Assembly: GCA_041499035.1 (NCBI GenBank)
Contig: JBGQJK010000001.1
Location: 12,314 to 76,313 of the forward strand
Origin: Patescibacteria group bacterium
Lineage (GTDB): Bacteria; Patescibacteriota; Microgenomatia; UBA8517
Length of the DNA: 64,000 nt
Reading direction: 5' to 3'
The translations under genes were made by a program, and so were the position numbers. The notes beneath the pieces were generated by a model. The model was given only the letters and a program-made list of their open reading frames with translations. It did no database searches and had not been told where the DNA came from. This document shows, one piece after another, positions 28,692 to 46,521 of the stretch (position 1 is the stretch's first letter; every line of letters starts with the position of its first letter).

Positions 28692-28693
28692 AC

Positions 28694-31497: not shown

Positions 31498-31505
31498 ACT
31501 TACAA

Positions 31506-31784
31506 TTATTTTGAAGTCCTCTGTTCTTGAACTCTGATAGTAATCTTACCAGTTGGTTGACCAGGAACCAGTAATGGGCAATAAAATGTATAGTACACCC
31601 CAGTGTGCTCTTGACTTCTGAAAAGACCTTCGTGTGCTGGATTGACCTTGGCTTTTGTAGCCAGAGCGTTTAGATCGATTGGCTCAGGCACGGTTTGGAC
31701 CAGCGATTTGAAAACATCCAAGTTACAGTTTCCAGGACATCCGGCACAGCGAGCAATATCTGCGACTAGTTCTGTAATAGCCAT
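31506..31784 (-). CDS. small DUF1858-like Cys protein (CxGCP ... IDLNAL)
   Basis: CAGCPGNC followed by an IDLNAL segment, resembling redox-disulfide DUF1858 proteins. Confidence 0.35.
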   Translation of the reverse strand: MAITELVADIARCAGCPGNCNLDVFKSLVQTVPEPIDLNALATKAKVNPAHEGLFRSQEHTGVYYTFYCPLLVPGQPTGKITIRVQEQRTSK

Positions 31785-31828
31785 AGGTCGTATTTATACC
31801 ACTTCCGTGCCTGTTAGTCAATTTTATA

Positions 31829-33367
31829 GTGTGGGAAAGAGTCATCTTGCCAAGCGGGGAGTGGCAGTTTAAACTACTAAACATGCAAAACTGGCTATTT
31901 AAGAATAAGACTATTCTTTCGATTCTCGATAAATATAAAGATATGTGGGCTCTAAGCTACGCCTCAGGAGTGGCCGGTTGGGATTTGGAGACATATATGC
32001 CAGAGATGGGCGCCATGGCCCGTGGTGAGGCACTAGGGAGGCTCTCAACTATCCGCCAGAGGCTCTTCTTGGACAAGGAGTTTATCGGTTTAATTCACCG
32101 GGCGGAAAAACAAAAAAATCTTACTGATCCAGAGCGCGGAGTCATCCGAGTTTTGCTTCACTCGCTCAAGTTCTACGAAAAGCTTCCACCCAAGTTTTTG
32201 GAGGATTTCAGCCGGCTTACAAGTCAGGCAACTGTAGTCTGGCGTGGGGCAAAAGCTAAAGACAACTTTAAACTCTTCGAGCCTCAGCTTTCAAAGATTT
32301 TTGATATGAATCGGCGAATGTCGGACTTCCTGGGCTACAAAGATTCACCATACGATGCGCTTCTCGATCAATTCGAGGAGGGCTTAACAAGCAGGGAAGT
32401 CGAACGCTTCTTTGGAGAAATAAAAGAACCACTTAAGAATCTACTTGTAAGAATCGAAAAGTCACCCAAGTTTTTCAAAAAACACAAACTGGAAAACGCT
32501 CTTTACGATGAAGCAACTATCAAGAGCTTAAATCTTAAAATAATGAAGCTCCTTTGGGCAGACTCCAGTCGTCTCCGGCTGGACATTTCAACTCATCCCT
32601 TCACCACCTCCTTTTCTAATACGGATACCCGTATAACTACATGGTATCACAAGAAGGATTTCGGTCGAAGCATACTGGCCGTGGTACACGAATTTGGTCA
32701 CGCTTTGTATGATTTGCAGTGTACAGATCAACTTGAGATGACTCCTATTCAAGGGGGGTCCTCCTTGGTGATACATGAGTCGCAAAGTAGGTTCTGGGAA
32801 AATTTTGTGGGCAGAAGCGAAAGCTTCATCCAATATTTCCTTAAAGACATGAGCGCTGCGGTACAACTTAAACTTTCCGCTGGCGAAGTCTACTCCTATT
32901 TCAATAAGGTCAGGCCCGGGCTCCTTAGAGTCGAGGCCGACGAGGTTACATACCACTTCCATATTATGCTCAGATTTGAAATCGAAAAAGGCTTAATCGA
33001 GGGTAAACTTAAAGTAAAAGACTTGCCGGAAATTTGGAATTCAAAAATGAAAGATTACCTGGGAATTGTACCAAAGCGCGATTCTGATGGGATCTTGCAG
33101 GATATTCATTGGAGCATGGGGAGCGTCGGCTACTTTCCGACATATTCGCTTGGAACTTTTCTCGGCGCGCAGTGGGAACATGAAATCTCAAATATGAAAA
33201 TAAGCAAATCTACAAATTACAAAGAAATAGAAAAATGGCTGGGGGAACATATTCATAAGTACGGATCTACCTACACACTCGAGGAGCTATTGAAGAAAAA
33301 TGGAATGAAGTTCGATCCCAAAGTGAATCTGAATTATCTCCTGGAAAAATACTCCAAGATATATTAA
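31829..33367 (+). CDS. M32 carboxypeptidase (Taq-type)
   Basis: HEFGHALYD (HEXXH) and the IQDIHWS...GYFPTYSLG motif. The start may be the later Met (MQNW..., about 31880). Confidence 0.75.
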   Translation: MWERVILPSGEWQFKLLNMQNWLFKNKTILSILDKYKDMWALSYASGVAGWDLETYMPEMGAMARGEALGRLSTIRQRLFLDKEFIGLIHRAEKQKNLTDPERGVIRVLLHSLKFYEKLPPKFLEDFSRLTSQATVVWRGAKAKDNFKLFEPQLSKIFDMNRRMSDFLGYKDSPYDALLDQFEEGLTSREVERFFGEIKEPLKNLLVRIEKSPKFFKKHKLENALYDEATIKSLNLKIMKLLWADSSRLRLDISTHPFTTSFSNTDTRITTWYHKKDFGRSILAVVHEFGHALYDLQCTDQLEMTPIQGGSSLVIHESQSRFWENFVGRSESFIQYFLKDMSAAVQLKLSAGEVYSYFNKVRPGLLRVEADEVTYHFHIMLRFEIEKGLIEGKLKVKDLPEIWNSKMKDYLGIVPKRDSDGILQDIHWSMGSVGYFPTYSLGTFLGAQWEHEISNMKISKSTNYKEIEKWLGEHIHKYGSTYTLEELLKKNGMKFDPKVNLNYLLEKYSKIY

Positions 33368-33396
33368 TTTTTGCTTTTTTATTTACAAAATGGGGC

Positions 33397-33425
33397 TTGA
33401 CACACTTGTAGTACTTTGATATTTT
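33397..33425 (+). promoter_or_regulatory. candidate sigma-70-type promoter (TTGACA-N17-TATTTT) upstream of the HTH gene
   Basis: The 11-mer CTTGACACACT is repeated at 33993-34003, upstream of the next gene. Confidence 0.3.
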
Positions 33426-33467
33426 CTGATTAAGAAAGATAAGTGATAGGCAGGGGAGTACATCAAA

Positions 33468-33686
33468 ATGGAACCAACTACTAAAAAGAAAGTCAGATTA
33501 GAAAATCTTCCGGACCTTCTTACAGTCCGTGAAGTTGCAGATATTTTAAGAGTCTCTCCTTTAACAATTAAACGGTGGGGCAAGCGCGGCAAGCTGCCCG
33601 CAATTCGCATTAACTCACGTGGCGACCGCAGATATAAAAAAGAAGCGGTCCTCTGGCTTCTCGGGATGCAGGGTAAGGAAGAATAA
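33468..33686 (+). CDS. excisionase-family helix-turn-helix DNA-binding protein
   Basis: LLTVREVADILRVSPLTIKRWGKRGKLPAIRI matches the excisionase/MerR-type HTH pattern. Confidence 0.55.
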   Translation: MEPTTKKKVRLENLPDLLTVREVADILRVSPLTIKRWGKRGKLPAIRINSRGDRRYKKEAVLWLLGMQGKEE

Positions 33687-33689
33687 TAC

Positions 33690-33980
33690 ATGGGTATTAG
33701 AGTTGAAGGAGATCTTACCTCAGAGGGAGTTGCGCTTCGAGTACTTAGCCCCACACCTCAACTAAAACTAATTTCAAAAGATGCAGAGGCCGGACTAATT
33801 TTTAATATTATTACTGAAACTTGTTCACGTTGTGAACTTTTTCAAAAAGACTGTAACGGTGCGGGATCGGTTTCAGAGGGCGGCAATAATATTGTTTTGG
33901 AAAAGGGCACAAAAGAACCGGTTAAGAGAAGGAACTGTAGAATTCCCGGCAGAAGCTTTGAGACTTTAGTAGATTCATAG
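33690..33980 (+). CDS. hypothetical protein
   Basis: An ORF only. Confidence 0.25.
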   Translation: MGIRVEGDLTSEGVALRVLSPTPQLKLISKDAEAGLIFNIITETCSRCELFQKDCNGAGSVSEGGNNIVLEKGTKEPVKRRNCRIPGRSFETLVDS

Positions 33981-34027
33981 GTTAGAATCCACTTGACACA
34001 CTCACCGGCAAAAGCTTAAATGTATGC

Positions 34028-34486
34028 ATGGTAGCTAGAGTTTTTGTCAAAAGGGGATTTGGTTTAATGTATCTTTCTATGGCGGTTTTAATGCTTCTTG
34101 TGGGCGCTTTTTTTGTTGTGAACGGAAATTTTAGTATTAACGCAGGTGCGCATTTTTTGAATTCAAAAAGGGGAATTTTGAGGAAAGACTTAAATCATAA
34201 TTATCCCTGCAACAGAGGAGTAAAGGCTGATTACGTAATCCAGGATCCGGCGAATGCTCAAAATTGTACTCCGGTAATTGCAAACCCAAGCGACGCGGAA
34301 AAGACAGTTGGTCATAATGTTCAGTTGAATGGAGTTGAGTTTGGAGGAAGATTTTTTACGACAGGTGTTACAACCATTCCTGATTCAGGAGTTTTGCCCA
34401 GTTCGCCTCCAACCTATCTTAAACCGTTTCATACTCCGGGCCCAACGGGTGGTTGGACGGGACCCGCAACGAGGAATCTTTATTAA
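34028..34486 (+). CDS. hypothetical membrane/secreted protein
   Basis: An N-terminal TM helix, and a TTGACACACT promoter-like motif upstream. Confidence 0.3.
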   Translation: MVARVFVKRGFGLMYLSMAVLMLLVGAFFVVNGNFSINAGAHFLNSKRGILRKDLNHNYPCNRGVKADYVIQDPANAQNCTPVIANPSDAEKTVGHNVQLNGVEFGGRFFTTGVTTIPDSGVLPSSPPTYLKPFHTPGPTGGWTGPATRNLY

Positions 34487-36213
34487 TCCAGTTTAATTTG
34501 TAGATTCCAGAAGTGGGAATAGAGGCTGTTCTTGTTCTTGAGCAAGCTCTCGTGAGTACCGACCTCTTTGATCTTACCGTATTCCATGACAACGATCTTA
34601 TCTGCTCTCATAACGGTAGATAAGCGGTGGGCGATAATAATAGTAGTTTTGCCCCTCCTGGCCTTCCAGAATGCATCCTGAATGAGCTTTTCGCTCTCGG
34701 AGTCCAAGTGGCTGGTTGCTTCATCAAAGACCACAATGTTGGGGTCGCTTAGTATCATCCTGGCGATTGCCAACCTTTGCTTCTGGCCTCCGGAAAGCTT
34801 GACCCCGCGTTCACCAACCTCTGTATTATATTTTTCTTTTAATCCCTCTATAAATTTATCGATATTGGCAAGGCGTGAGGCTGCTTTGATTTCGCTCAAA
34901 GTGGGGCTGTCTTTACCGTAGCCAATATTGTAGGCTATCGTGTTGTTGAACAGTATCGGTTCCTGGGGAACCACACCGACAAAACCCCGGAGTGTGCTCT
35001 TTGTAAAATCTTTAATGTTTATAGAGTCGACTGTAATTTCACCCGAGTCTATGTCATAAAATCTCATCAAAAGCTTTGCCAGAGTGGTTTTACCTGATCC
35101 ACTTCTCCCTACCAATGCTACAGACTCTCCCTGGTTAATTTTCAAACTAATACCGTTAATTGCATTTTTAGTCCGGCCGTTATAAGTAAAATGGACGTTA
35201 CTAAAGTTAATTTTGCCGTAAACATGGTCTATTTTGATAGGTTTTGCAGGATCTTTTACCTCAACTGAATAATCAAATAAGCCGATGTATTTTTGAATGT
35301 CGGAATAGCTCCTGGCGAAGTCCCTTAGACTCCAAACCACATCCCAAAGCCTGGGGAAAATGGTTGCTACAAATGCGGTGACCAGGACAAAATCGCCAAC
35401 GCTCATTTTAAGAGAGACTGTTGAATTGATGCTAAAAAGAAGCATTGCAAAGATTCCCAAATTTATTATTCCGCCGATAGTAAGATTAATTATTCTGTAG
35501 CTGTTTACAAATGTCCAAAGTTTGCTTTTCCAGGGGACAAAGGCTTGGCCCAGCCTGCCCAACTCCCATCTTTCTCTGGCAAACAGCTTGACTGTTTCAT
35601 AGTTAATAAGGTTATCTGTAATTACGTCAGTGACTTTATCCTCCTCGTCATTAAATGCGTTCCTTTTGGCGATATTATTTTCCAGAAGAAATTTTGTAGC
35701 AATAAGGGTTAGGATAATCGAAACAAGCACGATTAGGGCGATTATTGGGTCCAGTTGTGAAAAGAAGTACATCATCACGCCAAAGCTGACCAAAACGCTT
35801 AAAATTCTATGGTGGATAATGAACGAAAAATCAAAAAAGGCATTATCGCCACGCTTGAAAGCTGAAATCAGGGAACCGGTACTCTTATTTGAGTGGAAAA
35901 TAAAATCGAGATCCTGGACCCAGGAGAAAACCTCCGTTCTTAGTTTTGCTGCTCCCTCTATAAGCACATTATTTCCGGCCCAAAAAGCGAATTCATTAAG
36001 GACCAAACTTAATAGAGCAACCCCTATGTAGCTGATAAGTATTTGGAAGAGCCGGTCGTAGTTTTGTGCCGGAATAGCCTCAACAAAAAGTTTGTAAAAG
36101 TAGGGCGTGAGGCTCCCCAGGGCACTTGAGATGATAATCAGCAAAATATAGCCCGTGTATGCGAGGCGTTTTTCTGCTATAAACCTAAAGAACATTTTGA
36201 ATGTTTTATACAT
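34483..36213 (-). CDS. ABC exporter, fused permease-ATPase (MsbA-like)
   Basis: Six-TM N-terminal domain, Walker A GRSGSGKTT, signature LSGGQKQR, Walker B VVFDEATS. Confidence 0.85.
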   Translation of the reverse strand: MYKTFKMFFRFIAEKRLAYTGYILLIIISSALGSLTPYFYKLFVEAIPAQNYDRLFQILISYIGVALLSLVLNEFAFWAGNNVLIEGAAKLRTEVFSWVQDLDFIFHSNKSTGSLISAFKRGDNAFFDFSFIIHHRILSVLVSFGVMMYFFSQLDPIIALIVLVSIILTLIATKFLLENNIAKRNAFNDEEDKVTDVITDNLINYETVKLFARERWELGRLGQAFVPWKSKLWTFVNSYRIINLTIGGIINLGIFAMLLFSINSTVSLKMSVGDFVLVTAFVATIFPRLWDVVWSLRDFARSYSDIQKYIGLFDYSVEVKDPAKPIKIDHVYGKINFSNVHFTYNGRTKNAINGISLKINQGESVALVGRSGSGKTTLAKLLMRFYDIDSGEITVDSINIKDFTKSTLRGFVGVVPQEPILFNNTIAYNIGYGKDSPTLSEIKAASRLANIDKFIEGLKEKYNTEVGERGVKLSGGQKQRLAIARMILSDPNIVVFDEATSHLDSESEKLIQDAFWKARRGKTTIIIAHRLSTVMRADKIVVMEYGKIKEVGTHESLLKNKNSLYSHFWNLQIKLD

Positions 36214-36302
36214 TTTTTGGACGCCTAAAATCCCCCGTGGGGGAAATAGTGCGGCGAGACTAAATTGTATGCTATAATGCAGACACTTTCAACTAATTTT
36301 CC

Positions 36303-37199
36303 ATGCGAAAAGTAACCTTTTTGATATTTTTAGTGGTTTTGAGCCTGAATCTGGCTCTTCCTAGCCGTGCTCTGGCCAGAGCTATTCCGACAATCAGTCC
36401 GTCCCCGGAGGCCAGCGCCAGCGCTACACCCGTAGCTACGGTAGCCCCCACGCCTGTTCCCGACATCACTCAAAAGACTCAGGAAACGCTGGGCCCGCTT
36501 GAACAGCTTCTTAAATCTCAAAACTTGGCCTCGGTTTGGCCATATAATCCGATTAAATATGCTATCCGCGGGGCGGTTGCCGCGGGGGTGCCTGCCAACA
36601 CAATAGTCCTTCTGCTCCTACTCCCAATCATGACTTTTGTTATTGCGTTCAGCCGGAATGTGGTCGGGATCAGGGGCTTTGGAATTTTCCTGCCGGCTGC
36701 CTTATCTGTCGTATTTGTGGCTACCGGGCCAATTGTCGGAATAGGGCTTTTCCTTATTATCGTTGCGGTTTCAACATTTCTCAGGCTGGTTCTTAGAAAA
36801 CTTAAGATTAAGCTCCAGTACTTGCCCAGAATGGCATTTATTCTTTGGGGAGTGGTTATAGGCGTACTTGGTGCGTTATTCCTGGCTTCATACTTACGAT
36901 TTACAGAGCTTAGTAATGTTTCCATTTTCGCGGTTCTTATCCTTGTTCTTCTTTCGGAAGACTTTACTAGGGTGCAACTTGGTAAAAGCGCCAAAACGGC
37001 GGTAAACCTGACATTCGAGACTTTACTACTTTCCCTTATTTCTTACTTCTTTTTGACGCTTAAGCCATTGCAGGAGTATGTGCTTCTTAACCCGGAAATC
37101 TCCCTTATTGGCGTTGCCGCGCTCGATCTACTTTTAGGTAAATATACGGGACTCAGGATCATGGAGTTTTACCGTTTCAGAAAACTAATAAATTCATGA
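36303..37199 (+). CDS. polytopic membrane protein (7TM-like), possible partner of the downstream ATP-grasp
   Basis: A signal peptide, a P/A/T-rich linker and about six or seven hydrophobic helices. Confidence 0.45.
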   Translation: MRKVTFLIFLVVLSLNLALPSRALARAIPTISPSPEASASATPVATVAPTPVPDITQKTQETLGPLEQLLKSQNLASVWPYNPIKYAIRGAVAAGVPANTIVLLLLLPIMTFVIAFSRNVVGIRGFGIFLPAALSVVFVATGPIVGIGLFLIIVAVSTFLRLVLRKLKIKLQYLPRMAFILWGVVIGVLGALFLASYLRFTELSNVSIFAVLILVLLSEDFTRVQLGKSAKTAVNLTFETLLLSLISYFFLTLKPLQEYVLLNPEISLIGVAALDLLLGKYTGLRIMEFYRFRKLINS

Positions 37200-37305
37200 G
37201 GCAGATTTACCATTTTTCATTTTCCACTTTCCATTTATTTTCTAATTTCCAATTGACAAATTACAAATAGATGGCAGATGACAGATTGAAAATCGAAAAT
37301 TAAAT

Positions 37306-38622
37306 ATGAAGCTATCCTCAATTTTAGGATTAAATGCCCGGTCACAACTTTTTGCATACCGTTACAACAGTAGGCGCGGTAAAAACATTGCCGATTCAAA
37401 AATCCAGACAGCGGGGGTTCTGAAACGCGCGGGTGTAGCCACCCCAAAAATTTATAAGAAGTTTAGAGATCCAAACGATGTTACAACTTTTGACTGGAAC
37501 AGCCTGCCCGACAGGTTTGCTCTTAAACCGAGTAGAGGTTTGGGCGGGGAGGGAATCGTAGTTGTTAAAAAGAAGCTTAAAGATGGAGGCTGGCTTACAA
37601 CTCAGAAGGAACGTCTTACAGCAAGCGATCTGAAATTGCATAGCCTGGACACTCTGGAAGGCGCTTACTCAATGGGTAATATTCCGGATGTAGCATTTGT
37701 TCAGGAGTATGTTGGACGCCACCCCGTTTTTAGACGCTGGGCTTACCGCGGTACACCCGATATCCGTGTTATCATTTTCAATAAAGTTCCGGTAATGGCG
37801 ATGCTTAGGTTGCCCACAAAAGAGAGCGGCGGCAGGGCTAACCTGCACCAGGGAGCGGTCGGAGTAGGTGTTGATATAGCCACGGGGATAACCACAAAGG
37901 CGATTTGGCACGGGGACCAAATTGTATTCAAACCGGGGACAACCAGGAAACTCCGGGGAATAAAAATACCCGATTGGAATCAAATACTCGTTACCGCGGT
38001 TAACGCCCAAATAGCTTCACACCTCGGGTATATCGGGGTTGACATTGTTCTTCATCCGGAAAAAGGCCCCATGGTTCTTGAAATGAATGCCCAGCCGGGT
38101 CTTCAAATTCAGCTAGCAAATATGGAGGGCCTTAAGAGGAGGTTGGATAGAATTGATGAGTTGGAAGTTCGGGATGCAGAGCACGGAGTTAAAATTGCCA
38201 AAGCCCTTTTTGCCGGCCGTTTTGCGGATAGGGCGGCTGTTGAGGAAGGAATCAAAACAGTTAAGTCAGTGGAGGAAGTAAAAGTTTTATCCTCCGATTT
38301 AAATAGGGTTCCGGTACTTGCCAAAATAGACACCGGAGCTTGGTCTTCGGCAATTGATAAAAAGTTTGCCAAGGAGCTGGGAATTTTAAATAAAGACAAA
38401 GTCCTTTGGTATAAAAGAAAACTAAGCGCTTTGGGGGAAGAAGACCGACCGGTTATTCCTGTGACCTTCTGGCTTGCGGGTAGGAAAATTAAAACTGACA
38501 TGACTGTGGCTGACAGGAAACTCCTAAGGTATCAAATCCTGATCGGTAGGGTTGACCTGCAAGGCTTTTTAGTCAGCCCGGAAATAGACAAAGATAATTT
38601 GCGCGAGGCCAAGTGGAAATAG
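37306..38622 (+). CDS. RimK-like ATP-grasp ligase fused to a C-terminal retropepsin-like (DTG) domain
   Basis: ATP-grasp core (IVVVKK..., EMNAQPGL) and a C-terminal AKIDTGAWSSAID aspartic-protease-like motif. Confidence 0.6.
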   Translation: MKLSSILGLNARSQLFAYRYNSRRGKNIADSKIQTAGVLKRAGVATPKIYKKFRDPNDVTTFDWNSLPDRFALKPSRGLGGEGIVVVKKKLKDGGWLTTQKERLTASDLKLHSLDTLEGAYSMGNIPDVAFVQEYVGRHPVFRRWAYRGTPDIRVIIFNKVPVMAMLRLPTKESGGRANLHQGAVGVGVDIATGITTKAIWHGDQIVFKPGTTRKLRGIKIPDWNQILVTAVNAQIASHLGYIGVDIVLHPEKGPMVLEMNAQPGLQIQLANMEGLKRRLDRIDELEVRDAEHGVKIAKALFAGRFADRAAVEEGIKTVKSVEEVKVLSSDLNRVPVLAKIDTGAWSSAIDKKFAKELGILNKDKVLWYKRKLSALGEEDRPVIPVTFWLAGRKIKTDMTVADRKLLRYQILIGRVDLQGFLVSPEIDKDNLREAKWK

Positions 38623-39515
38623 TCGTGAAAAAAATATTGATTTTAACCAGTGGAAAAAAGAGCAAGCTCAGAGCTTTTAAATTGTCTCAACGCGACTTAA
38701 GTTTGGACCTGACAACGGCATCATTTAATGATGTCTATTTTGATTCGGGAAACCGTGAAGTATTTCTTAAAGGGAGAACGAATTTAAAAGCTTTTAATGT
38801 AATTTACTTCCGTTTGGTCGGGAAGTCGCTTGAAACGGCTGCGTTAGTTGCCGAGTATGCCAAGAGAAATAGAATACAAATTGTAGACAAAGTATATACT
38901 AAATCCCAAGTATTCCCCGTAACTCAGAGCAAGACTCAGGAAATGAAATCGTTATCAGATGCCAAAATCCCGATTCCCAAAACGTTCTTCGGGTCTCTGA
39001 CCCAAATTATCAAAAAATCTAAAGAAACCTTTGGATTTCCGTTTGTAATTAAAAGCACTTCGGGAAGCCGGGGACGCGAAGTATATAGTCCAAGGGACGG
39101 CGAAGAGCTTAAGAGTCTTGTTGGTATTCTTTCCAAGGAAGAAAAAGCCGGTAAAAAGTTTTTTGCTCAGGAATTTATCAATTGCACAAAAAGGGTTAGG
39201 GTACTCACCGTTGGAGGCAAAATAATGGGTTCGATTTCCCAGCTGACCAAATGGCGCAAGAGGGTTTCGGGTTACACGCCCCGGGAAGATGAAAAGAAGA
39301 TAGACAAGTTCTATCCTTCGAGTGACATGCAAAAGCTGGCTCTGTCTGCGGTCTCTGCCGTGGGGATCGATATTGCCGGGGTAGACATTTTAATTGACGA
39401 AAGAAGTGGCAGAAGTTTTGTCATTGAAGTTAACGCCGCCCCGAGTTGGAATTTAATTAAAAAATACTGCAAAGTTAATGTTGAATATGAAATCCTCAAA
39501 TTTATATCGAGATAA
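38613..39515 (+). CDS. RimK/LysX-family ATP-grasp peptide ligase
   Basis: FVIKSTSGSRGREV, RVLTVGGKIMG and VIEVNAAPSW. Confidence 0.6.
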   Translation: MEIVVKKILILTSGKKSKLRAFKLSQRDLSLDLTTASFNDVYFDSGNREVFLKGRTNLKAFNVIYFRLVGKSLETAALVAEYAKRNRIQIVDKVYTKSQVFPVTQSKTQEMKSLSDAKIPIPKTFFGSLTQIIKKSKETFGFPFVIKSTSGSRGREVYSPRDGEELKSLVGILSKEEKAGKKFFAQEFINCTKRVRVLTVGGKIMGSISQLTKWRKRVSGYTPREDEKKIDKFYPSSDMQKLALSAVSAVGIDIAGVDILIDERSGRSFVIEVNAAPSWNLIKKYCKVNVEYEILKFISR

Positions 39516-40089
39516 ATTCAAAAAATTTGGAGTTTATCCAAAGTCCCTTCTTTGGAAAACCCGGGGCGCAGCACACCAAAGGTTTAGGCAGTTTTGGGCC
39601 GAGATTGTTTTTAATGGTAAAAAAGTGTTGGACGTGGGCTGCGGGTTCGGGGAGTTCGGCAAGTTTCTTCTCAAACGCTACAAGAATGTTGACTATACGG
39701 GAACCGATATAGTGCCGGAATTTATTGAAAACGCGAAGAAAGAAGTTCCGGGAGGGCATTTCTTTGTCGCCGATTTTATGAATGACCCCACTTCGCCAAG
39801 GCTTCGCGGGGCAAGCGTCGTAATCGTGTCCGGGGTCTTAAACTCTGATAAGGGAAGTCAAAATTTAAAGTTCAGGATGGCAGCAATCAAAAAAATGTTT
39901 ACCTTGACCTCGTATATATTGGCTTTCAACATGCTTGGGGGGCATCCTAAGCCGGCGAACAAGAAAGGCAGCAACGTTTGGTATTCAAATTCTCTTGAGA
40001 TTCTCAACTACTGCATGTCCCTAACACCTCGCGTTATTCTCCGTACCAATTATCATCCCAAAGACTTTACAATAATAATGTACAAATAA
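39478..40089 (+). CDS. class I SAM-dependent methyltransferase
   Basis: Motif I VLDVGCGFGEFG. Confidence 0.65.
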   Translation: MLNMKSSNLYRDKFKKFGVYPKSLLWKTRGAAHQRFRQFWAEIVFNGKKVLDVGCGFGEFGKFLLKRYKNVDYTGTDIVPEFIENAKKEVPGGHFFVADFMNDPTSPRLRGASVVIVSGVLNSDKGSQNLKFRMAAIKKMFTLTSYILAFNMLGGHPKPANKKGSNVWYSNSLEILNYCMSLTPRVILRTNYHPKDFTIIMYK

Positions 40090-40113
40090 GCGAAGCTTGA
40101 AACTTATGAAGTT

Positions 40114-41025
40114 ATGAAAAAGATTTTAATTCTTGCGTCAAAACGAAGCGGTAAAAAAGAGGAGTTTATAAGTTATCTCCAAAAACAATTTGACAGAAAT
40201 GCCGAGGTTGTTTTGGGGGTCTTCTCCGATTTAATTTTTGAGATAGAAACCGGTAATATTACCGTGGAAATCGACGGCAGGAATATTAATGATTTTGATT
40301 TGGTCTACTTCAGAAACACGACAGGTCTTCAGTCAATGGCGGCGGGGCTGTCTATTTATTTGGAAAGCACGGGGGTTAAATTTTTTGACAAGTCTTTTGT
40401 TAACGGAAGTTTTGTCGGTGATAAATTTACAAGCTCTATGAGGCTGGCAGTCGAGGGTATCCCGATTGTACCGAGTTTTGTTTGCTGGAAGGATGCCATC
40501 AGTAAAAGTAAGAAAAGAATTGTTGAAAAGTTCGGTTTCCCGGTTGTTGCCAAGGAGGTCAGGAGTCAAAGAATGAAGCGGATTTACCTTCTAAAAACTC
40601 TGGCCGACTTTGATAAACTTCCCGAGACTGTAAGTAACGGCACGCCGGCCCGGTATTTGTTTCAAAAGTTTATTGATATAGACAGGGAGTTCAGGATTTT
40701 GGTATTGGGGGAGCGGATCGGAATAATTCATACAAAGACGTTGAGAGATAATACCGGGTTTAAAGTGGGGTATTTTGATATGAATGAATATCCAGAGTTT
40801 TTAAAACCGGAAGACGTGTCTTCTATAATCAAAGAAGCGGCCCTAAAAGCCGCGAATGTACTACATATTCAGATAGCGGGAGTGGACATTTGCAGGGAAC
40901 GGACTACCGGCAAGATTTTTGTCTTTGAAGTAAATAGAGGCCCGGGGATAGACTACGATACCAATGTTTCACAGGAACTTCCCGAGATTGCAAAATTCTT
41001 CTCTTCCCAGCTCGATATTAAATAA
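40114..41025 (+). CDS. RimK-family ATP-grasp peptide ligase (third paralogue)
   Basis: FPVVAKEVRSQRMK, FRILVLGERIG and VFEVNRGPG. Confidence 0.55.
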   Translation: MKKILILASKRSGKKEEFISYLQKQFDRNAEVVLGVFSDLIFEIETGNITVEIDGRNINDFDLVYFRNTTGLQSMAAGLSIYLESTGVKFFDKSFVNGSFVGDKFTSSMRLAVEGIPIVPSFVCWKDAISKSKKRIVEKFGFPVVAKEVRSQRMKRIYLLKTLADFDKLPETVSNGTPARYLFQKFIDIDREFRILVLGERIGIIHTKTLRDNTGFKVGYFDMNEYPEFLKPEDVSSIIKEAALKAANVLHIQIAGVDICRERTTGKIFVFEVNRGPGIDYDTNVSQELPEIAKFFSSQLDIK

Positions 41026-41185
41026 CCTTATTTCCGGTATTATCTTTCGATATTGGATACTTTTGCTATCCATCAAATCGTGAAAATGTTGACTTTTTCA
41101 CGAACCAAATATAATACGAAATTTGTTTATGCAACAAAAAATCCGCCCTTTTCGGACGGACTTTTTGATATCAGTTAAGTTTTAA

Positions 41186-41626
41186 TTACTTCAACTCAAC
41201 TGTAGCACCTGCCGCTTTAAGTTTTTCCGCTGCACTTTTTGCGTCTTCCGCTTTTGCGTCTTTCAAAACTTCGGCCGGTACGGCCTCTGTCATGCCTTTT
41301 GCGTCCATGAGAGTTAAATTAGGATTTATTTCTCGTAGAGCTTTGATGACATTAATTTTTTGGGCACCGCTAGCCGTCATAGTGACGGTTTGCAGACCGC
41401 CTTCGGTTGCCAACGGGGCGGCTTCACCTGCGGGAGCTGCACCTGCAACCGGCGCTGCGGCGGCCATAGGCATAGCACTCACGCCAAGTTTGTCCTGTAG
41501 AGCGGTAACTAGTTCAGAAAGTTCCAAAACAGAAAGTTTTGCAACTTCTTCGACCAGCTCATCTACTTTTTTACTAACCTTTTTTGTTTCTTCTGCCATA
41601 TTTCTCACCTCATTTCTGATTTTCAA
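41186..41626 (-). CDS. rplL: ribosomal protein L7/L12
   Basis: An Ala-rich hinge and a C-terminal AAGATVELK. Confidence 0.9.
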   Translation of the reverse strand: MKIRNEVRNMAEETKKVSKKVDELVEEVAKLSVLELSELVTALQDKLGVSAMPMAAAAPVAGAAPAGEAAPLATEGGLQTVTMTASGAQKINVIKALREINPNLTLMDAKGMTEAVPAEVLKDAKAEDAKSAAEKLKAAGATVELK

Positions 41627-41712
41627 TTTTCAGTTATCAATTTTCAATAAATTTACAATTATTCATTGAGTCAATGAAAATTCAATGTAAATTGAAAATT
41701 GGTAATTGTTAA

Positions 41713-42231
41713 TTAGCCTTTAGACTTTTGATCCAAAATAAACACCAATTTCTGTAAATTTCCATTTAGAGTACCGGTAAGTCCATACATAGGTGAGATT
41801 AAAGCCCTAAGAAGTTGTCCCAAAAGAACGTCGCGGCCGGGAAGAACGGAAAGCTTTACTAATGATTCACTATCCTGAAAAGTACCGTCAACCATGCCGA
41901 CTTTAAATTTAGGAAGTTCCGTTTCTTTGGCAAATTTACCAAGCACCTGGATTGGAGCAATCGGGTCCTGGTCGGCTAGGACTATGGCAGTTTGACCGGA
42001 CAGGATTTCGTCGGTTGCCATTTTGCTATCAATTTTTGCGGATTCAAATGCACGCTTAAGGAGAGTGTTTTTGACTACAACCATCCTGCCTCCCGCCTCC
42101 TTAAGCCTGCGCTTTAGGTCCTGCTGGGCTTTAACATTAAGGCCTGTATAGTTGACTAAGACCAGAGATTTGGCCCCTTTGAGCTCCTCGGTAAGACTGT
42201 CGACTAGTGTAACTTTTTGTGCTTTAAGCAT
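41713..42231 (-). CDS. rplJ: ribosomal protein L10
   Basis: L10-like N-terminus and its position upstream of rplL. Confidence 0.85.
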   Translation of the reverse strand: MLKAQKVTLVDSLTEELKGAKSLVLVNYTGLNVKAQQDLKRRLKEAGGRMVVVKNTLLKRAFESAKIDSKMATDEILSGQTAIVLADQDPIAPIQVLGKFAKETELPKFKVGMVDGTFQDSESLVKLSVLPGRDVLLGQLLRALISPMYGLTGTLNGNLQKLVFILDQKSKG

Positions 42232-42244
42232 TGTTTTAAGTACA

Positions 42245-42270
42245 TAAAAAAACGCGCTTTCGAGGCGCGT
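42245..42270 (-). terminator. GC hairpin plus T-run (attenuator/terminator) in the rplJ leader
   Basis: On the minus strand: ACGCGC-CTCGAAA-GCGCGT followed by TTTTTTT, about 14 nt before the rplJ ATG. Confidence 0.45.
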
Positions 42271-42658
42271 AAAATATTCGCTTCCTCGGTATGATTTACA
42301 GCTGCGTAGCAGATGCCAAGCTCCGCTTATGCCGCCGACATACTTTCTTAGGACAACCGTATTTTAACTCGATGGGAGGGTAAAAACAAGTCTTATTTTT
42401 TAGTGCTTGTGGTTCCCGTGCGGGGTACGCGTGGAGGCGGGGGCAAGGTTGAATTAGTCGGGGCGTATGGGTAGCCTGTTATATCATCAAGCTGTTTCTG
42501 TACGTTTTCCGGAAGTGGTAATAGAGGTAGTCCGGAATTGGTGTGGAACTGCCCTTCGAATTGCGAATCTTCAACTCGAACTGGACGTGGTTTGCTTTTG
42601 TCTTCTGACATAATCCTATTCTACAACACTTATTTAAATTTTTACAAGATGTGTAAAG

Positions 42659-43471
42659 CTAAAGCTGTAGTTTTACACTCGGGGACATGGTGGACTTGAT
42701 GAAGGCTCTTACGATTTGCTTGCTTCCACCCAGGGCCCTCAGGACCGCTTCGGCGTTATCCACAATTTCTTCGTCTTTCTGGCTATTTTTGCCGATTACG
42801 GTATGAATAAGTGGGGCTTCTTTCTCGGTTTTTAAGGTCAAGGCTCCCGCGGAGAAACTTTTGGCTTTCTTGAGGTCGGCAACCAAAGTTCCGTTTTTGG
42901 GATTTGGCATGAGTCCTTTGGGACCTAGGAGCCGTGCGAATGGAACCAGCTTTGGCATCATATCGACCGTTGCTACCAGAATATCAAAATCAATTTTGCC
43001 TTCTTTTAATTTCTTGACCGTGTCTTCATCCGCTATCTCGACTTTCTTGGTTCTTCCAGCTTGGAAGGGTAGAGTTACTTGGGCCGAGGTTCCCGTCTTT
43101 TTTACAACTATGTGGAGCTCCATAGTTCCGTCGAATTTTGAATAAGATGAAGTTTTTACCAGCTTGACTGCCTCCGCCGGTTTGTAGAACTTTTCGCGGT
43201 CAAATTTGGCTTTGGCCTCTACATATTTCTTGCCCCGGACCTTCTCCACGATTTTCTTTTCTTCGGTCCTCTTAAGTCCTTCTTTGGTACCTTCCTCAAT
43301 AATTGGGGCTTCTTCCGTAGGAGCTGCCTCAACAATTTTTACGCGCTGGCCGCCTTTAAGACCGGCCACGTGCACTTTTTCCGCCTCACCTTTGTGGGCT
43401 TTTTCGTGCTTCTTCTCGTTTTTGTTTTCGTCTTCGCCGACGAACGCTGTTTTCATTTTACCCATACACAT
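42659..43471 (-). CDS. rplA: ribosomal protein L1 with a ~70-aa Lys/Glu-rich N-terminal extension
   Basis: The L1 core begins at GKKYVEAKAKFD; alternatively the start is an internal GTG. Confidence 0.8.
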   Translation of the reverse strand: MCMGKMKTAFVGEDENKNEKKHEKAHKGEAEKVHVAGLKGGQRVKIVEAAPTEEAPIIEEGTKEGLKRTEEKKIVEKVRGKKYVEAKAKFDREKFYKPAEAVKLVKTSSYSKFDGTMELHIVVKKTGTSAQVTLPFQAGRTKKVEIADEDTVKKLKEGKIDFDILVATVDMMPKLVPFARLLGPKGLMPNPKNGTLVADLKKAKSFSAGALTLKTEKEAPLIHTVIGKNSQKDEEIVDNAEAVLRALGGSKQIVRAFIKSTMSPSVKLQL

Positions 43472-43507
43472 TTCGTACTTTCTTTAGAAGAAAGTACGGC
43501 AAAGAAC

Positions 43508-43930
43508 TTAATCTGTTTTAACTCCCATGGAACGGGCTGTTCCTTCCACAATCTTCATCGCGGCTTCAACATCTTTGGTATTCAGATCATCCATTTTGTC
43601 TTCGGCGATTTGTTTTACCTGAGCTTTCGTTAAAGTTCCGGCAATTTCGCGGGGGGTTTTGCCTGACCCTTTTTCTATCCCCAAAACTTTTTTGATCATG
43701 TCAGCTACAGGTGCCTTTTTGATTACAAACTCGAAACTTCTATCTTCATAAATTGTGATTACGGCCGGGGCAACTTGACCCTTCATATCTTTGGTCCTGT
43801 CGTTGTACTGTTTGACAAACTCCATGATGGCCACGCCATGCTGGCCCAGGGCCGTTCCCACGGGAGGGGCGGGGGTAGCCTCAGCCGCCTTTAGATTGAT
43901 TTTGACTACCGTTTTTATCTTTTTTGCCAT
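43508..43930 (-). CDS. rplK: ribosomal protein L11
   Basis: [33 protein letters not shown]. Confidence 0.9.
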
Positions 43931-44265
43931 ATTCCTTTTAGACTAGGCACAAATTGAAAACTAAACTGAAGTTTTCGACTTGCGTCTGCCACCTAAAATC
44001 AAGTGGTACAGGGATTGTACCAGAAGTGTATAATTTATTCAAATGGGAGATGGTGTTGAGAAGAAGGATTGGGAAATGCCCGGTGGGACAGTTGTCAGGC
44101 CCACGAAGGAAGTTTCTCTTGAGGAACTAGAAGAAGCTGGCAATCATGCTGTGGAAAATGGTGGACATCTGGTAATTGAAGGAACCGGCAGCGGACAGCA
44201 TATAAAAGTAACACCAGTCAAGACAGTTGTGGAAGGAATGCCCGCCCCGAAGAAAAAAAAGTAGA

Positions 44266-44901
44266 TTAAACCTTCTGAATTTGGAGAAAATCGAGCTCAA
44301 CCGGGGTTTCTCTTCCAAAAATGCTTACTAAAACTTTAACTTTGCCTTTTTCTTCATCCATCTCGTGGATTGTGCCCAAAAAGTCGGCAAACGGTCCATC
44401 TGTGATTTTAATGGCTTCGCCGACGCTGAATTTGGTTTTAAATCTTGGGGCGGGCGAGCTTATAAATTTCTGAATATTATTTACTTCCGCTTCGGAAAGA
44501 GGTGTGGGGTTATTGCCTGCGCCTACAAAACCGGTAATTCCTGCTGTGGTACGAACGGCAAGCCAGGTAGGGTCGTCCAAAATCATTTTGATGAGTAAAT
44601 ATCCGGGGAAAATCTTTTCCTTAACTGTGGCTTTTTTACCACCGCGGATTATGACTCTGTCCTGGGTGGGGACCAGCATTTCAAAAATGTGACCCGTTAA
44701 ATTCATGGTCTCAATTCTTTGCCTGAGAGTTTCCATAACCCTGACTTCGTGGCCCGAGCTGGTGTGGACTACATACCATTTGGCTTTGGGGTCCTCCGTT
44801 TGGGCAACAATAATGTGTCCCGGGATTTTCTTTTTTCCGGTTCCGCGCTCGTCAACACCCGCTACGATAGCGGCAGGCTGGTTGGTTGTGTCGTCTTTCA
44901 T
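44266..44901 (-). CDS. nusG: transcription termination/antitermination factor NusG (N-terminal extension)
   Basis: KWYVVHTSSGHE NGN domain and a KOW motif. Confidence 0.85.
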   Translation of the reverse strand: MKDDTTNQPAAIVAGVDERGTGKKKIPGHIIVAQTEDPKAKWYVVHTSSGHEVRVMETLRQRIETMNLTGHIFEMLVPTQDRVIIRGGKKATVKEKIFPGYLLIKMILDDPTWLAVRTTAGITGFVGAGNNPTPLSEAEVNNIQKFISSPAPRFKTKFSVGEAIKITDGPFADFLGTIHEMDEEKGKVKVLVSIFGRETPVELDFLQIQKV

Positions 44902-45083
44902 TTTGTTACTACTTTAGTCAGAAGCGTGGTAAAGAGGTAGTCTAAACCCCCTACGTAGGCTCCAAGAATGCCTGAAACTATGAATACGGTCAGAGTGAGC
45001 TTAATGACTTCGTCACGGGTGGGCCATGTAACGCGGCTTAGCTCAAGTCTTACCTCGCCAAAAAAATTGACTACAGCTTTCAT
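44898..45083 (-). CDS. secE: preprotein translocase subunit SecE
   Basis: EVRLELSRVTWPTRDEV followed by a TM helix. The internal Met start (MKAVVNFF) was chosen; the ORF track extends to 45161. Confidence 0.7.
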   Translation of the reverse strand: MKAVVNFFGEVRLELSRVTWPTRDEVIKLTLTVFIVSGILGAYVGGLDYLFTTLLTKVVTK

Positions 45084-45153
45084 TTGAGATTGTATTGTAG
45101 CAGAAAGATCGGGTAAAAAAAAGAGAGGGTTGATCAAGCTGGTATAATGAGAT

Positions 45154-45624
45154 ATGACCATTGATCACGGGCCGACCGGTTTTAGTAAAATGATAAAACC
45201 CGACAAACATGAAAAAGGTAAGTTCGAGGTCGGCGGTCAAACCTTTCGAAACCCTGTAAAAGAGACTCGAATTCCTAACTATCTTCTTGACAATCTTAGA
45301 CCTCTTGCAACAAGGGCATTTATAGCCGAAAGCGGGGATTCCGATACATCTGGTCAATCCCGTCTAGACCAGCAAATGGCGCAAATGAGTAAAAAATTCC
45401 GTGAGGAGCAGCCTGAAGAAGTTTGGAAGAGAACAATAGCTACAATTATGAAGCAGAAAGGTGTTACGGCTGAAAAAATTGCGACCGACCTTTTCGAAAC
45501 CGATGAGGACGCTTTTAGAAATTTGTGGATGGGACAGTCTCCACATAAAATATTGCCAAGGATCGTTGGGGCAATTGAGATTGAACTACATAAAAATTGG
45601 CCCGGTGCGCCTATTAGGAGATGA
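45154..45624 (+). CDS. hypothetical protein
   Basis: An ORF with a well-formed length and stop overlap with rnhB. Confidence 0.3.
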   Translation: MTIDHGPTGFSKMIKPDKHEKGKFEVGGQTFRNPVKETRIPNYLLDNLRPLATRAFIAESGDSDTSGQSRLDQQMAQMSKKFREEQPEEVWKRTIATIMKQKGVTAEKIATDLFETDEDAFRNLWMGQSPHKILPRIVGAIEIELHKNWPGAPIRR

Positions 45625-46358: not shown

Positions 46359-46521
46359 AATGGGCGATCCTGTACTTTGCCTCTTTTCTTTTCTCTGACG
46401 GCTTTTTGTACTGGGCTCTGTCGCGGTATTCTCGTATCACGTCCTCATCGATGGTCTTTTTGCGAAACCGGGCAATAAGTTTATCCTCGCTTTCGCCCTT
46501 TTTCTTTTTAAGAATGAACAT
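46327..46521 (-). CDS. rpsU: ribosomal protein S21
   Basis: ARFRKK...REYRDRAQYKKPSEKRKEAK matches the S21 pattern. Confidence 0.7.
   Translation of the reverse strand: MFILKKKKGESEDKLIARFRKKTIDEDVIREYRDRAQYKKPSEKRKEAKYRIAHSIQLEKKRSF

What the first reader, a model, noticed from the sequence alone, without database searches (positions are those of the whole stretch)
36303..41025. ATP-grasp 'peptide-tailing' cluster: membrane protein + RimK-like ligase fused to retropepsin-like domain + two more RimK-like ligases + SAM methyltransferase
The cluster contains:
- 36303-37199: a ~7-TM membrane protein.
- 37306-38622: an N-terminal RimK-type ATP-grasp fused to a C-terminal aspartic-protease-like domain (AKIDTGAWSS).
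- 38613-41025: two further RimK-family ligases and a class I SAM methyltransferase.

The membrane protein + alpha-L-glutamate-ligase-like ATP-grasp + retropepsin-like ('Zn_protease') combination was predicted bioinformatically by Iyer et al. 2009 to synthesise or modify a peptide at the membrane. Here it is expanded with extra ligases and a methyltransferase. The cluster sits next to the cohesin/dockerin loci and shares their junction motif. The product (a poly-amino-acid tail on a protein, or a small peptide) is unknown.
Basis: partly seen in the sequence, partly recalled or inferred. Interest (0 to 1): 0.7.

Follow-up and report, generated by a model that had tools for sequence, protein, structure and literature searches.

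The report
Rlo-like peptide-ligase operon in Patescibacteria
This is a real five-gene operon in a tiny-genome (CPR/Patescibacteria) bacterium that pairs a membrane protein with three ATP-driven peptide ligases, one fused to its own protease; it is a compact, widely conserved relative of the recently described Pseudomonas rlo/rim systems, and what it makes is still unknown.

Summary
Five co-directional, tightly packed genes at 36303-41025 encode:
- a signal-peptide + 7TM protein (PF14402) with no transglutaminase domain;
- an RloC-type ATP-grasp ligase (PF14397/TIGR02291-like) fused to a C-terminal retropepsin-like domain with an invariant DTGA motif;
- two paralogous RimK/LysX-like ligases;
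- a class I SAM methyltransferase.

The 7TM gene lies directly upstream of the fusion gene in 61 of 61 related loci. At least one extra ATP-grasp gene follows in 49 of 50 complete intervals, and at least two in 31 of 50. The four-gene module recurs in three unrelated genomic contexts, and relatives fuse the ligase to the 7TM domain, to another ATP-grasp or to a MATCAP carboxypeptidase. The methyltransferase is optional (11 of 50).

The "junction motif" shared with the dockerin genes is real (a 29-nt spacer, 28/29 identical) but specific to this genome, so it says nothing about function.

Best reading: a membrane-coupled, non-ribosomal system that makes and trims an acidic peptide. The product and the role of the 7TM protein are inferred, not shown. 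It is a new variant of a known kind, of moderate interest.

The parts
36270..36278 (+). Candidate extended -10 promoter (TGcTATAAT) in the divergent intergenic region between the ABC transporter gene and the 7TM gene
   Evidence: Read directly from the sequence. The consensus scan did not report it because there is no good -35 hexamer. Inference only.
36303..37199 (+). RloB-like membrane protein (298 aa). It has an N-terminal signal peptide (MRKVTFLIFLVVLSLNLALPSRALA), a variable Pro/Thr/Ala/Ser linker, a short conserved extracytoplasmic segment and then 7 TM helices (PF14402). There is no transglutaminase domain. Predicted topology is N-terminus outside, C-terminus inside.
37306..38622 (+). 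Fusion protein (438 aa, no signal peptide or TM segment). An RloC-type ATP-grasp ligase (aa 1-~300; nt 37306-38205), a helical linker and a retropepsin-like aspartic endopeptidase domain (aa ~318-430; nt 38257-38595).
   Evidence: PF14397 3e-65; TIGR02291 3.5e-80. The Mg/ATP motif GVDIVLHPEKGPMVLEMNAQPG aligns to RimK. Foldseek matches ArgX, RimK and LysX for the N-terminal part, and foamy-virus protease, RloA (9g58/9g59), Ddi1 and ApRick for the C-terminal part. The family profile's best PDB hits are RloA2 (1.1e-4) and RimK (5e-4).
38329..38340 (+). Codons for the catalytic D342-T343-G344-A345 motif of the retropepsin-like domain
   Evidence: Invariant in 34 homologs. Aligned with the DTGA of RloA2 9g59 and RloA 9g58. 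K340, R381 and R404 align with the basic residues conserved in RloA (PMC12239564).
38613..39515 (+). Ligase 2: RimK/LysX/ArgX-like ATP-grasp (300 aa). The true start may be the GTG at 38625 (VKKILIL...), 2 nt after the fusion gene's stop.
   Evidence: PF08443 3.9e-20; TIGR00768 113 bits (cutoff 143.4). Best PDB matches are ArgX 3vpb, LysX and RimK. K146, GVD and E-x-N are conserved in 20 orthologs.
39478..40089 (+). Class I SAM-dependent methyltransferase (203 aa); an optional tailoring enzyme
   Evidence: Methyltransf_25/12/31. PDB matches cover only the SAM-binding region, so the substrate cannot be assigned. Present in 11 of 50 related clusters; a GNAT acetyltransferase is found in 5 of 50.
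40087..40115 (+). 29-nt intercistronic spacer (TAAGCGAAGCTTGAAACTTATGAAGTTAT) shared with the junction between two dockerin-type genes at 22249-22277. It contains a 3-codon mini-ORF whose stop overlaps the ligase 3 start codon.
   Evidence: 28/29 identical. The 13-nt core occurs 4 times against 0.18 expected. Absent from the same junction in L006, L007 and all other relatives.
40114..41025 (+). Ligase 3: a divergent RimK/LysX-like ATP-grasp (303 aa), paralog of ligase 2
   Evidence: PF08443 5.5e-11; TIGR00768 67 bits. 30% identical to ligase 2, E 1e-23. It keeps the ATP-binding Lys, GVD and E-x-N, but lacks the Gly-rich loop and the R-x-N motif; the same holds in 37 orthologs.
41141..41157 (.). 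Hairpin with T-runs on both sides, between the convergent ligase 3 and rplL genes: a likely bidirectional intrinsic terminator that ends the operon
   Evidence: Terminator-like site on the - strand. The sequence read shows a T-run on the + strand as well.

Best explanation
The locus is an operon that builds and trims a peptide without the ribosome, at the inner face of the cell membrane. It is the Patescibacteria version of the Pseudomonas rlo system, with features of the rim system.

Proposed steps:
1. The cytoplasmic fusion protein uses ATP to add amino acids, most likely glutamate or another acidic residue, either to a growing free peptide or to a carboxylate acceptor.
2. Its own C-terminal retropepsin-like domain dimerises within the ligase oligomer. 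It cuts the acidic chain, which limits its length, and may stimulate the ligase as RimB stimulates RimK.
3. The two RimK/LysX-like paralogs add further residues (priming, extension or branching).
4. The methyltransferase, where present, caps the product.
5. The 7TM protein docks the ligase at the membrane and passes the product to the outside or anchors it there.

Shown here: the gene set, the folds, the intact catalytic motifs, the operon structure and the co-conservation.

Inferred: the identity of the amino acid, the polymer nature of the product, and the export or anchoring role of the 7TM protein.
For: Domains and folds.

Catalytic motifs: D...E-x-N is present in all three ligases. DTGA is invariant in the clade. 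K340, R381 and R404 align with the basic residues that RloA uses to bind poly-Glu (PMC12239564).

Operon: genes overlap or are 2-25 nt apart, apart from one 106-nt gap, and a single terminator follows.

Co-conservation:
- The 7TM gene is directly upstream of the fusion gene in 61 of 61 loci.
- At least one extra ATP-grasp follows in 49 of 50 complete intervals, and at least two in 31 of 50.
- The same four-gene module sits in three unrelated contexts: next to rplL, between ruvC and ruvA, and next to T4SS-pilin/GH18 genes in Shapirobacteria-type loci.

Natural fusions: 7TM+ligase; ligase+protease+second ATP-grasp; ligase+protease+MATCAP carboxypeptidase.

Constraint: the core pair is as conserved as ribosomal proteins L10, L12 and L1 in the same loci.

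Precedent:
- Deleting rloB or rloC suppresses the loss of the RloA proteases, and RloA cleaves runs of at least 8 Glu.
- RimB binds RimK and stimulates its poly-alpha-Glu synthesis, and an active RimB-RimK hybrid exists.
Against: - There is no direct evidence for any substrate or product.
- Pfam names the ligase family 'sugar-transfer associated', and one relative is fused to a YdjC-like sugar deacetylase, so a non-peptide acceptor is possible.
- TIGR02291 scores below its cutoff (269 against 314), and PF05618 is just under its gathering score (26.8 against 27).
- The 7TM model resembles no known transporter or enzyme.
- The protease here is cytoplasmic, unlike the secreted RloA, so the logic of the Pseudomonas system may not transfer.
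- The extra ligases vary in number (0-3) and evolve fast. Ligase 3 lacks two motifs typical of RimK/GshB.
- The conservation comparison is biased, because the loci were chosen by similarity to the fusion protein.
Confidence: 0.5

Rival explanations
1. Protein tailing. The ligases add an amino-acid tail to the C-terminus or a side-chain carboxylate of one specific protein, as RimK does to ribosomal protein S6, TTL enzymes do to tubulin and LysX does to LysW. The fused protease, and MATCAP carboxypeptidases in relatives, act as erasers. The 7TM protein is the target or a regulator, not an exporter.
For: - The best structural matches are protein-tailing enzymes: ArgX in complex with LysW, and RimK.
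- Fusion to MATCAP, a tubulin-detyrosinating carboxypeptidase family, mimics a writer/eraser pair.
- RimB removes Glu tails from S6.
- In many lineages the cluster lies next to ribosomal protein genes.
Against: - No ORF with an acidic C-terminal tail and no LysW-like carrier is present in the window or in the tightly packed cluster.
- The adjacency to rplL is lineage-specific and is lost in two other contexts.
- The obligate pairing with, and natural fusion to, a 7TM protein has no parallel in the RimK, LysX or TTL systems.
- None of the ligases reaches the RimK or LysX family cutoffs.
Confidence: 0.2
2. Glycan or cell-wall decoration. The ligases amidate carboxyl groups of a sugar acid, a lipid-linked precursor or peptidoglycan with amino acids. 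The 7TM protein handles the lipid-linked or extracellular substrate.
For: - PF14397 is named 'sugar-transfer associated ATP-grasp'.
- One relative is fused to a YdjC-like deacetylase.
- The flanks in several lineages hold envelope genes: Wzy_C, nucleotide-sugar enzymes, GH18, a PBP and pilins.
- rlo mutants in Pseudomonas show cell-shape and beta-lactam phenotypes.
Against: - A conserved endopeptidase domain with residues of the poly-Glu-binding type is fused to the ligase.
- C-terminal carboxypeptidases are fused in relatives.
- No glycosyltransferase or flippase is consistently part of the module.
Confidence: 0.12
3. Two unrelated units that merely sit side by side: an rlo-like pair (7TM + fusion) and, separately, RimK-like genes plus a methyltransferase with their own function.
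For: - The downstream genes evolve much faster and vary in number.
- Two loci have none (L059) or only a divergent one (L077).
Against: - An ATP-grasp gene follows in 49 of 50 intervals.
- The gene junctions overlap.
- The same association is found in three independent genomic contexts.
- A natural single-chain fusion of ligase, protease and a second ATP-grasp exists (P0253).
Confidence: 0.05
4. A RiPP (graspetide-like) cluster. The ATP-grasp enzymes cyclise a ribosomally made precursor peptide, the protease removes the leader, and the methyltransferase tailors the product.
For: - PsnB, a graspetide ligase, appears among the fold matches.
- Graspetide clusters with UbiE-like methyltransferases have been reported in CPR.
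- An ABC exporter gene lies divergently upstream.
Against: - There is no conserved small ORF in or beside the cluster: the gaps are 2-25 nt, and the 24-aa ORF in the 106-nt gap is unique to this genome.
- The graspetide maturase model scores 17.7 bits against a cutoff of 350.
- The reported CPR graspetide loci have different partner genes.
Confidence: 0.03

Closest known systems
rloABC operon of Pseudomonas aeruginosa (Lormand et al. 2025, mBio, PMC12239564)
   Same: It has the same three protein families in one operon: a PF14402 7TM protein (RloB), a TIGR02291/PF14397 ATP-grasp (RloC) and a PF05618 retropepsin-like protease (RloA). The catalytic DTGA motif and the aligned basic residues are shared.
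   Different: - Here the 7TM protein has no inactive-transglutaminase domain.
- The protease is fused to the C-terminus of the ligase and has no signal peptide, so it is cytoplasmic rather than secreted.
- One to three further ATP-grasp ligases, with or without a methyltransferase or GNAT, belong to the module.
- The host is Patescibacteria, whereas RloB was reported as 96% Proteobacteria.
RimK/RimB and the RimBK hybrid (Little et al. 2016 and 2025, PMC11957791)
   Same: A cytoplasmic ATP-grasp ligase works with a cytoplasmic retropepsin-like endopeptidase. A natural single-chain hybrid exists and is active. RimB stimulates RimK's poly-alpha-glutamate synthesis.
   Different: - The domain order is reversed: RimBK has the protease at the N-terminus, here it is at the C-terminus.
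- The ligase is of the RloC type, not RimK (TIGR00768 45.9 bits against a cutoff of 143.4).
- The rim system has no membrane partner.
- No S6-type substrate is evident here.
ATP-grasp + 7TM/inactive-transglutaminase + 'Zn_protease' neighbourhood predicted by Iyer, Abhiman, Burroughs & Aravind 2009 (Mol Biosyst 5:1636). The paper could not be read here, so this is recalled from memory.
   Same: The same three-family association, and the same general prediction of peptide synthesis or modification at the membrane.
   Different: The fused, transglutaminase-less, multi-ligase form in CPR was not found described in any paper searched.
LysX/ArgX-LysW amino-group carrier system
   Same: Ligases 2 and 3 find ArgX and LysX as their best solved relatives.
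   Different: There is no LysW-like carrier gene, the scores are far below the LysX cutoff (81.5 and 56 bits against 275.6), and no lysine or arginine pathway genes are nearby.
Tubulin tyrosine ligase / MATCAP tailing-detailing cycle
   Same: In relatives of this module, an ATP-grasp ligase that adds residues is paired with, and even fused to, a MATCAP-family carboxypeptidase.
   Different: The window's own cluster has no MATCAP domain. The resemblance is one of logic only, in relatives.
Membrane-coupled poly-amino-acid synthases (PgsBCA poly-gamma-glutamate; cyanophycin synthetase)
   Same: They also polymerise amino acids without the ribosome using ATP-dependent amide ligases, and PgsBCA does so together with membrane subunits.
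   Different: They are not homologous as systems. PgsB is a Mur-type ligase, and cyanophycin synthetase needs a Mur-like M domain that is absent here. Only weak ATP-grasp-level matches were found.

Membership tests
rloABC system | RloC-type cytoplasmic ATP-grasp (TIGR02291 / PF14397) | tested here: inconclusive
   PF14397 scores 220.6 bits (gathering score 31.4), so it is a clear member of the Pfam family. TIGR02291 scores 269.4 bits, below its 314.2 cutoff, so it is related but not an equivalog.
rloABC system | [quoted passage not shown] | tested here: not met
   Only the 7TM part is present (PF14402 residues 102-295; the RloB model matches only its positions 312-506 of 508). The N-terminus is a signal peptide plus a Pro/Thr-rich linker.
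rloABC system | RloA: a separate, secreted retropepsin-like protease with a signal peptide | tested here: not met
   The protease domain forms the C-terminus of the ligase, and the fusion has no signal peptide or TM segment. No second copy is present in the window.
rloABC system | The three functions are encoded together in one operon | tested here: met
   The 7TM gene is directly upstream of the fusion gene in 61 of 61 loci.
rloABC system | Retropepsin active site (D-T/S-G-A) with basic residues lining the substrate channel | tested here: met
   DTGA is invariant. K340, R381 and R404 align with conserved K/R residues of RloA and RloA2. Mapping these onto K46, R114 and R137 of RloA is inferred from the alignment and the paper's text.
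rloABC system | Role in hypo-osmotic tolerance, with ligase or 7TM loss suppressing protease loss | not testable with these tools
   This needs genetics in an uncultivated organism.
RimK / RimBK | RimK-family ligase (TIGR00768; PRK10446 equivalog) | tested here: not met
   Against TIGR00768 (cutoff 143.4) the fusion scores 45.9 bits, ligase 2 scores 113 and ligase 3 scores 67. PRK10446 scores are at most 36 bits against a cutoff of 331.
RimK / RimBK | RimB domain at the N-terminus of RimK in the hybrid | tested here: not met
   The order here is ligase then protease.
RimK / RimBK | Ribosomal protein S6 with a C-terminal Glu as substrate | not tested
   No rpsF gene and no acidic-tailed ORF were seen in the 64-kb window. 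The rest of the genome was not available.
Graspetide (RiPP) cluster | A precursor peptide gene and a graspetide-type maturase | tested here: not met
   No conserved small ORF was found. TIGR04187 scores 17.7 bits against a cutoff of 350.
LysX/ArgX carrier-protein system | LysW-type carrier protein and a LysX equivalog | tested here: not met
   TIGR02144 scores 81.5 and 56 bits against a cutoff of 275.6. There is no room for a carrier gene in the cluster.
Cyanophycin synthetase | ATP-grasp G domain plus Mur-ligase-like M domain in one protein | tested here: not met
   TIGR02068 scores at most 40.6 bits against a cutoff of 850, and there is no M domain.
Known anti-phage defence systems (PADLOC) | Match to a defence-system protein model | tested here: not met
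   Four of the five proteins have no hit. The methyltransferase gives only a generic match.

The most novel reading that the evidence does not exclude
The slowly evolving 7TM + ligase-protease pair could be a near-essential envelope machine of Microgenomatia-type Patescibacteria. It would export a polyanionic peptide onto the cell surface, acting as a functional stand-in for teichoic-acid-like or osmoprotective polyanions. The fast-evolving, variable set of extra ligases and capping enzymes would give each lineage its own surface peptide chemistry, perhaps shaping attachment to hosts. The fused form would also represent an arrangement intermediate between the rim and rlo systems.
Probability: 0.12. 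Interest if true: 0.85.

Novelty: new variant of a known kind. Interest (0 to 1): 0.55.

Why it matters

This locus shows that a compact relative is widespread in Patescibacteria, organisms with very small genomes that keep little that is dispensable. Its two core proteins are conserved about as well as ribosomal proteins.

The architecture has several practical uses:
- Ligase and protease sit in one chain, and the membrane partner is a minimal 7TM protein without the transglutaminase domain. That makes a simpler target for reconstitution and structure work.
- The natural fusions (7TM-ligase, ligase-protease-ligase, ligase-protease-carboxypeptidase) give direct, testable hypotheses about which components act together.
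- The finding extends the reported phylogenetic range of the RloB and RloC families well beyond Proteobacteria.

Tried and rejected
- The genome-contig scan with the single protein returned only one locus because the patterns were too specific. The metagenome scan with the alignment replaced it.
- Iyer et al. 2009 is not held, so it is cited from memory only.
- PADLOC gave no defence-system match.
- Rfam and tRNA scans of 33000-46000 and 30000-47000 found nothing.
- A scan of the window for acidic C-terminal tails or poly-acidic runs, as candidate ligase substrates, found nothing.
- Cluster-member lookups gave almost no taxonomy for the distant representatives.
- A strict D[TS]GA regex suggested that most distant relatives lack the motif (22 of 84). 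Proper alignment showed this was largely a boundary artefact: 42 of the 52 alignable domains keep the Asp.
- An S6-modifying RimK role, a LysX-type carrier system, cyanophycin synthetase and graspetide maturation were each considered and rejected as family assignments on score cutoffs and missing partner genes.
- Adjacency to rplL was considered as a functional clue. It was rejected because the module also occurs in two other genomic contexts.

Full report
**Observation**

They form a tight unit:
- The fusion gene's stop at 38622 is overlapped by, or 2 nt from, the start of ligase 2 (38613, or the GTG at 38625).
- The methyltransferase start overlaps the end of ligase 2.
- Ligase 3 starts 24 nt after the methyltransferase stop.
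- The only sizeable gap is 106 nt, between the 7TM gene and the fusion gene.
- A hairpin with T-runs at 41141-41157 separates the unit from the convergent rplL gene.
- GC content matches the surroundings.

**Domain and fold assignment**

*Fusion protein, ligase part (438 aa in all).* It matches PF14397 (3e-65) and TIGR02291 (3.5e-80, 269 bits, below the 314 cutoff). It keeps the Mg/ATP motif that aligns with RimK.

*Fusion protein, C-terminal domain (about 120 aa).* Four lines of evidence identify it:
- It scores just under the PF05618 threshold.
- It aligns with the RloA crystal structures 9g59 and 9g58 with the DTGA motif in register.
- The family profile's two best PDB hits are RloA2 and RimK.
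- The confidently modelled domain (pLDDT 80-90) matches foamy-virus protease, RloA, Lpg0085, Ddi1 and ApRick.

D342-T-G-A is invariant in 34 homologs. K340, R381 and R404 align with the basic residues conserved in RloA proteins. The Rlo paper shows that such residues bind poly-glutamate. The residue-number mapping is my inference.

*Ligases 2 and 3.* They are paralogs (30% identity). Their closest solved relatives are ArgX, LysX and RimK, but both fall below the RimK-family cutoff. Both keep the ATP-binding Lys and the D...E-x-N motif. Ligase 3 and its orthologs lack the Gly-rich loop and the R-x-N motif.

*Methyltransferase.* It is a generic class I SAM enzyme, and its substrate cannot be assigned.

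**What is already known**

The three core families make up the rloABC operon of P. aeruginosa: RloA (secreted retropepsin), RloB (inactive transglutaminase + 7TM) and RloC (ATP-grasp). Loss of the three RloA paralogs causes hypo-osmotic lethality, antibiotic sensitivity and shape defects. These are suppressed by deleting rloB or rloC. RloA cleaves runs of at least 8 Glu.

In the related rim system, RimB binds RimK, trims poly-Glu tails and stimulates poly-alpha-Glu synthesis. [quoted passage not shown]

No searched paper describes the form found here. The CPR graspetide loci described by Makarova et al. have different partner genes.

**Distribution and co-conservation**

The window comes from a Patescibacteria (CPR) genome. 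Sources name homologs as Patescibacteria, Microgenomates, Woesebacteria and Shapirobacteria.

The fusion protein has thousands of relatives at the 90% clustering level. At the 50% level, 416 clusters score E < 1e-30.

I annotated 94 fetched loci with the window's proteins. After removing duplicates:
- The 7TM gene is directly upstream of the fusion gene on the same strand in 61 of 61 loci with enough upstream sequence. Two apparent exceptions were ORF-overlap artefacts.
- In 50 complete intervals between the fusion gene and rplL, the number of extra ATP-grasp genes is 0 in 1 locus, 1 in 18, 2 in 27 and 3 in 4. This count includes a recurrent 313-aa family, identified by Pfam as another ATP-grasp.
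- The methyltransferase is present in 11 of 50 and a GNAT in 5 of 50. One locus carries a GATase1/peptidase-C26-like gene.
- The window's exact order (ligase 2, methyltransferase, ligase 3) recurs only in L006 and L007.

The convergent rplL-rplJ-rplA-rplK block follows in 38 of the 42 loci with at least 6 kb of downstream sequence. This adjacency is lineage-specific, because the module also occurs elsewhere:
- A more distant clade has 7TM(+PKD domains), ligase-protease-MATCAP, three ATP-grasp genes and another MATCAP after ruvC, or 7TM plus ligase-protease-ATP-grasp between ruvC and ruvA.
- Shapirobacteria-type genomes have 7TM, fusion and two RimK-like genes beside T4SS-pilin arrays and a GH18 gene.

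Among the 150 nearest 50%-identity representatives:
- 84 carry the protease domain, and 33 of these have a further C-terminal extension. The extended proteins checked with Pfam carry MATCAP, a second ATP-grasp or YdjC.
- 4 have the 7TM domain fused to the ligase.

In those distant relatives the catalytic Asp is kept in 42 of the 52 alignable domains and replaced, mostly by Asn, in the rest.

Within the same loci, score-to-self ratios are 0.65 for the fusion and 0.58 for the 7TM protein. Ribosomal proteins L1, L12 and L10 score 0.53-0.59 and L11 scores 0.80. The methyltransferase and the extra ligases score 0.12-0.37. This comparison is biased, because the loci were selected by similarity to the fusion protein.

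**The junction motif**

The spacer after the methyltransferase stop (40087-40115) is 28/29 identical to the spacer between two GH39-like/dockerin-type genes at 22249-22277. The 13-nt core also occurs at 27433 and, on the minus strand, at 42317 in the rplJ leader: four copies against 0.18 expected.

The spacer is absent from the same junction in the closest relative (L006, 90% identity for the fusion protein) and in every other locus. It is therefore a real, genome-specific repeat, perhaps spread by recombination. It holds a three-codon mini-ORF that abuts the downstream start codon. It is not evidence for a functional link to the cohesin/dockerin genes. Those genes are about 4.8 kb away, and they are not neighbours of the module in other lineages.

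**Mechanism**

*Shown here:*
- a conserved operon;
- three ligases with intact Mg/ATP motifs;
- an intact retropepsin active site on a cytoplasmic protein;
- an obligate 7TM partner whose C-terminus faces the cytoplasm.

*Inferred from the Rlo and Rim work:*
- The fusion protein polymerises or adds acidic residues.
- The fused protease cuts the chain and possibly activates the ligase.
- The paralogous ligases add further residues.
- The methyltransferase or GNAT caps the product.
- The 7TM protein exports or anchors it.

The recurrent fusion or pairing with endo- and carboxypeptidases favours a peptide product over a sugar one. However, the Pfam family name and the YdjC fusion keep a glycan acceptor possible.

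Protein tailing is the main rival. It is weakened by the lack of any candidate substrate in the window and by the membrane coupling. Chance co-location is contradicted by the three independent genomic contexts and by the natural fusions. A RiPP reading lacks a precursor gene.

**Verdict**

The locus is not a member of rloABC as defined, because two of the defining features were tested and not met. It most likely works like a hybrid of the rlo and rim systems. I rate it a new variant of a known kind, with interest 0.55.

Noticed in passing
window 22249-22277, 27433-27445, 40087-40115, 42317-42329(-): A genome-specific repeated intergenic sequence. The 13-nt core TAAGCGRAGCTTG occurs 4 times against 0.18 expected. 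The 29-nt version is shared between a dockerin-gene junction and the methyltransferase/ligase 3 junction, and it holds a 3-codon mini-ORF (ATG AAG TTA stop) that abuts the next start codon. Its origin and role are unknown.
   Followed up: yes
window 37200-37305: The gap between the 7TM and fusion genes is 106 nt here (T-rich, with a 24-aa ORF overlapping the 7TM stop). It is 4-25 nt in L006-L010 and most metagenome loci, which suggests a recent insertion at this junction.
   Followed up: partly
window 34483-36213 (-): An MsbA-like ABC half-transporter is transcribed divergently from the 7TM gene. The same arrangement recurs in at least 13 related loci, so it could be a further exporter for the product or simply conserved gene order.
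   Followed up: partly
window 31829-33367 (+): An M32 (Taq-type) carboxypeptidase lies upstream (PF02074, E 6.7e-141). It is not a conserved neighbour of the module.
   Followed up: no
window 56256-57320 (+): A fourth ATP-grasp gene in the window is a D-Ala-D-Ala ligase type (PF07478, E 4.3e-38) and is unrelated to the cluster.
   Followed up: no
window 20452-31497 (+): A run of six co-directional genes for large secreted-looking proteins. Several end in near-identical 166-nt dockerin-coding repeats (27266, 28522, 30105). Two are GH39-like, and 30271-31497 has both cohesin and dockerin domains plus long Pro/Thr linkers.
   Followed up: partly
L011:3474-5876; representatives P0249, P0268, P0278: Distant relatives fuse the ligase-protease to a MATCAP (PF08014) carboxypeptidase. 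In some distant relatives the retropepsin Asp is replaced by Asn, which suggests a protease domain that is now inactive and perhaps only binds substrate.
   Followed up: partly
L095:4549-6917 and L096:4095-6883: In Shapirobacteria-type genomes the four-gene module sits next to arrays of 6-7 small T4SS_pilin-like genes and a GH18 gene.
   Followed up: no
L015:10575-11432: One related cluster carries a GATase1/peptidase-C26-like gene (the gamma-glutamyl hydrolase family) between ATP-grasp genes. This is a weak hint that glutamyl bonds are involved.
   Followed up: no
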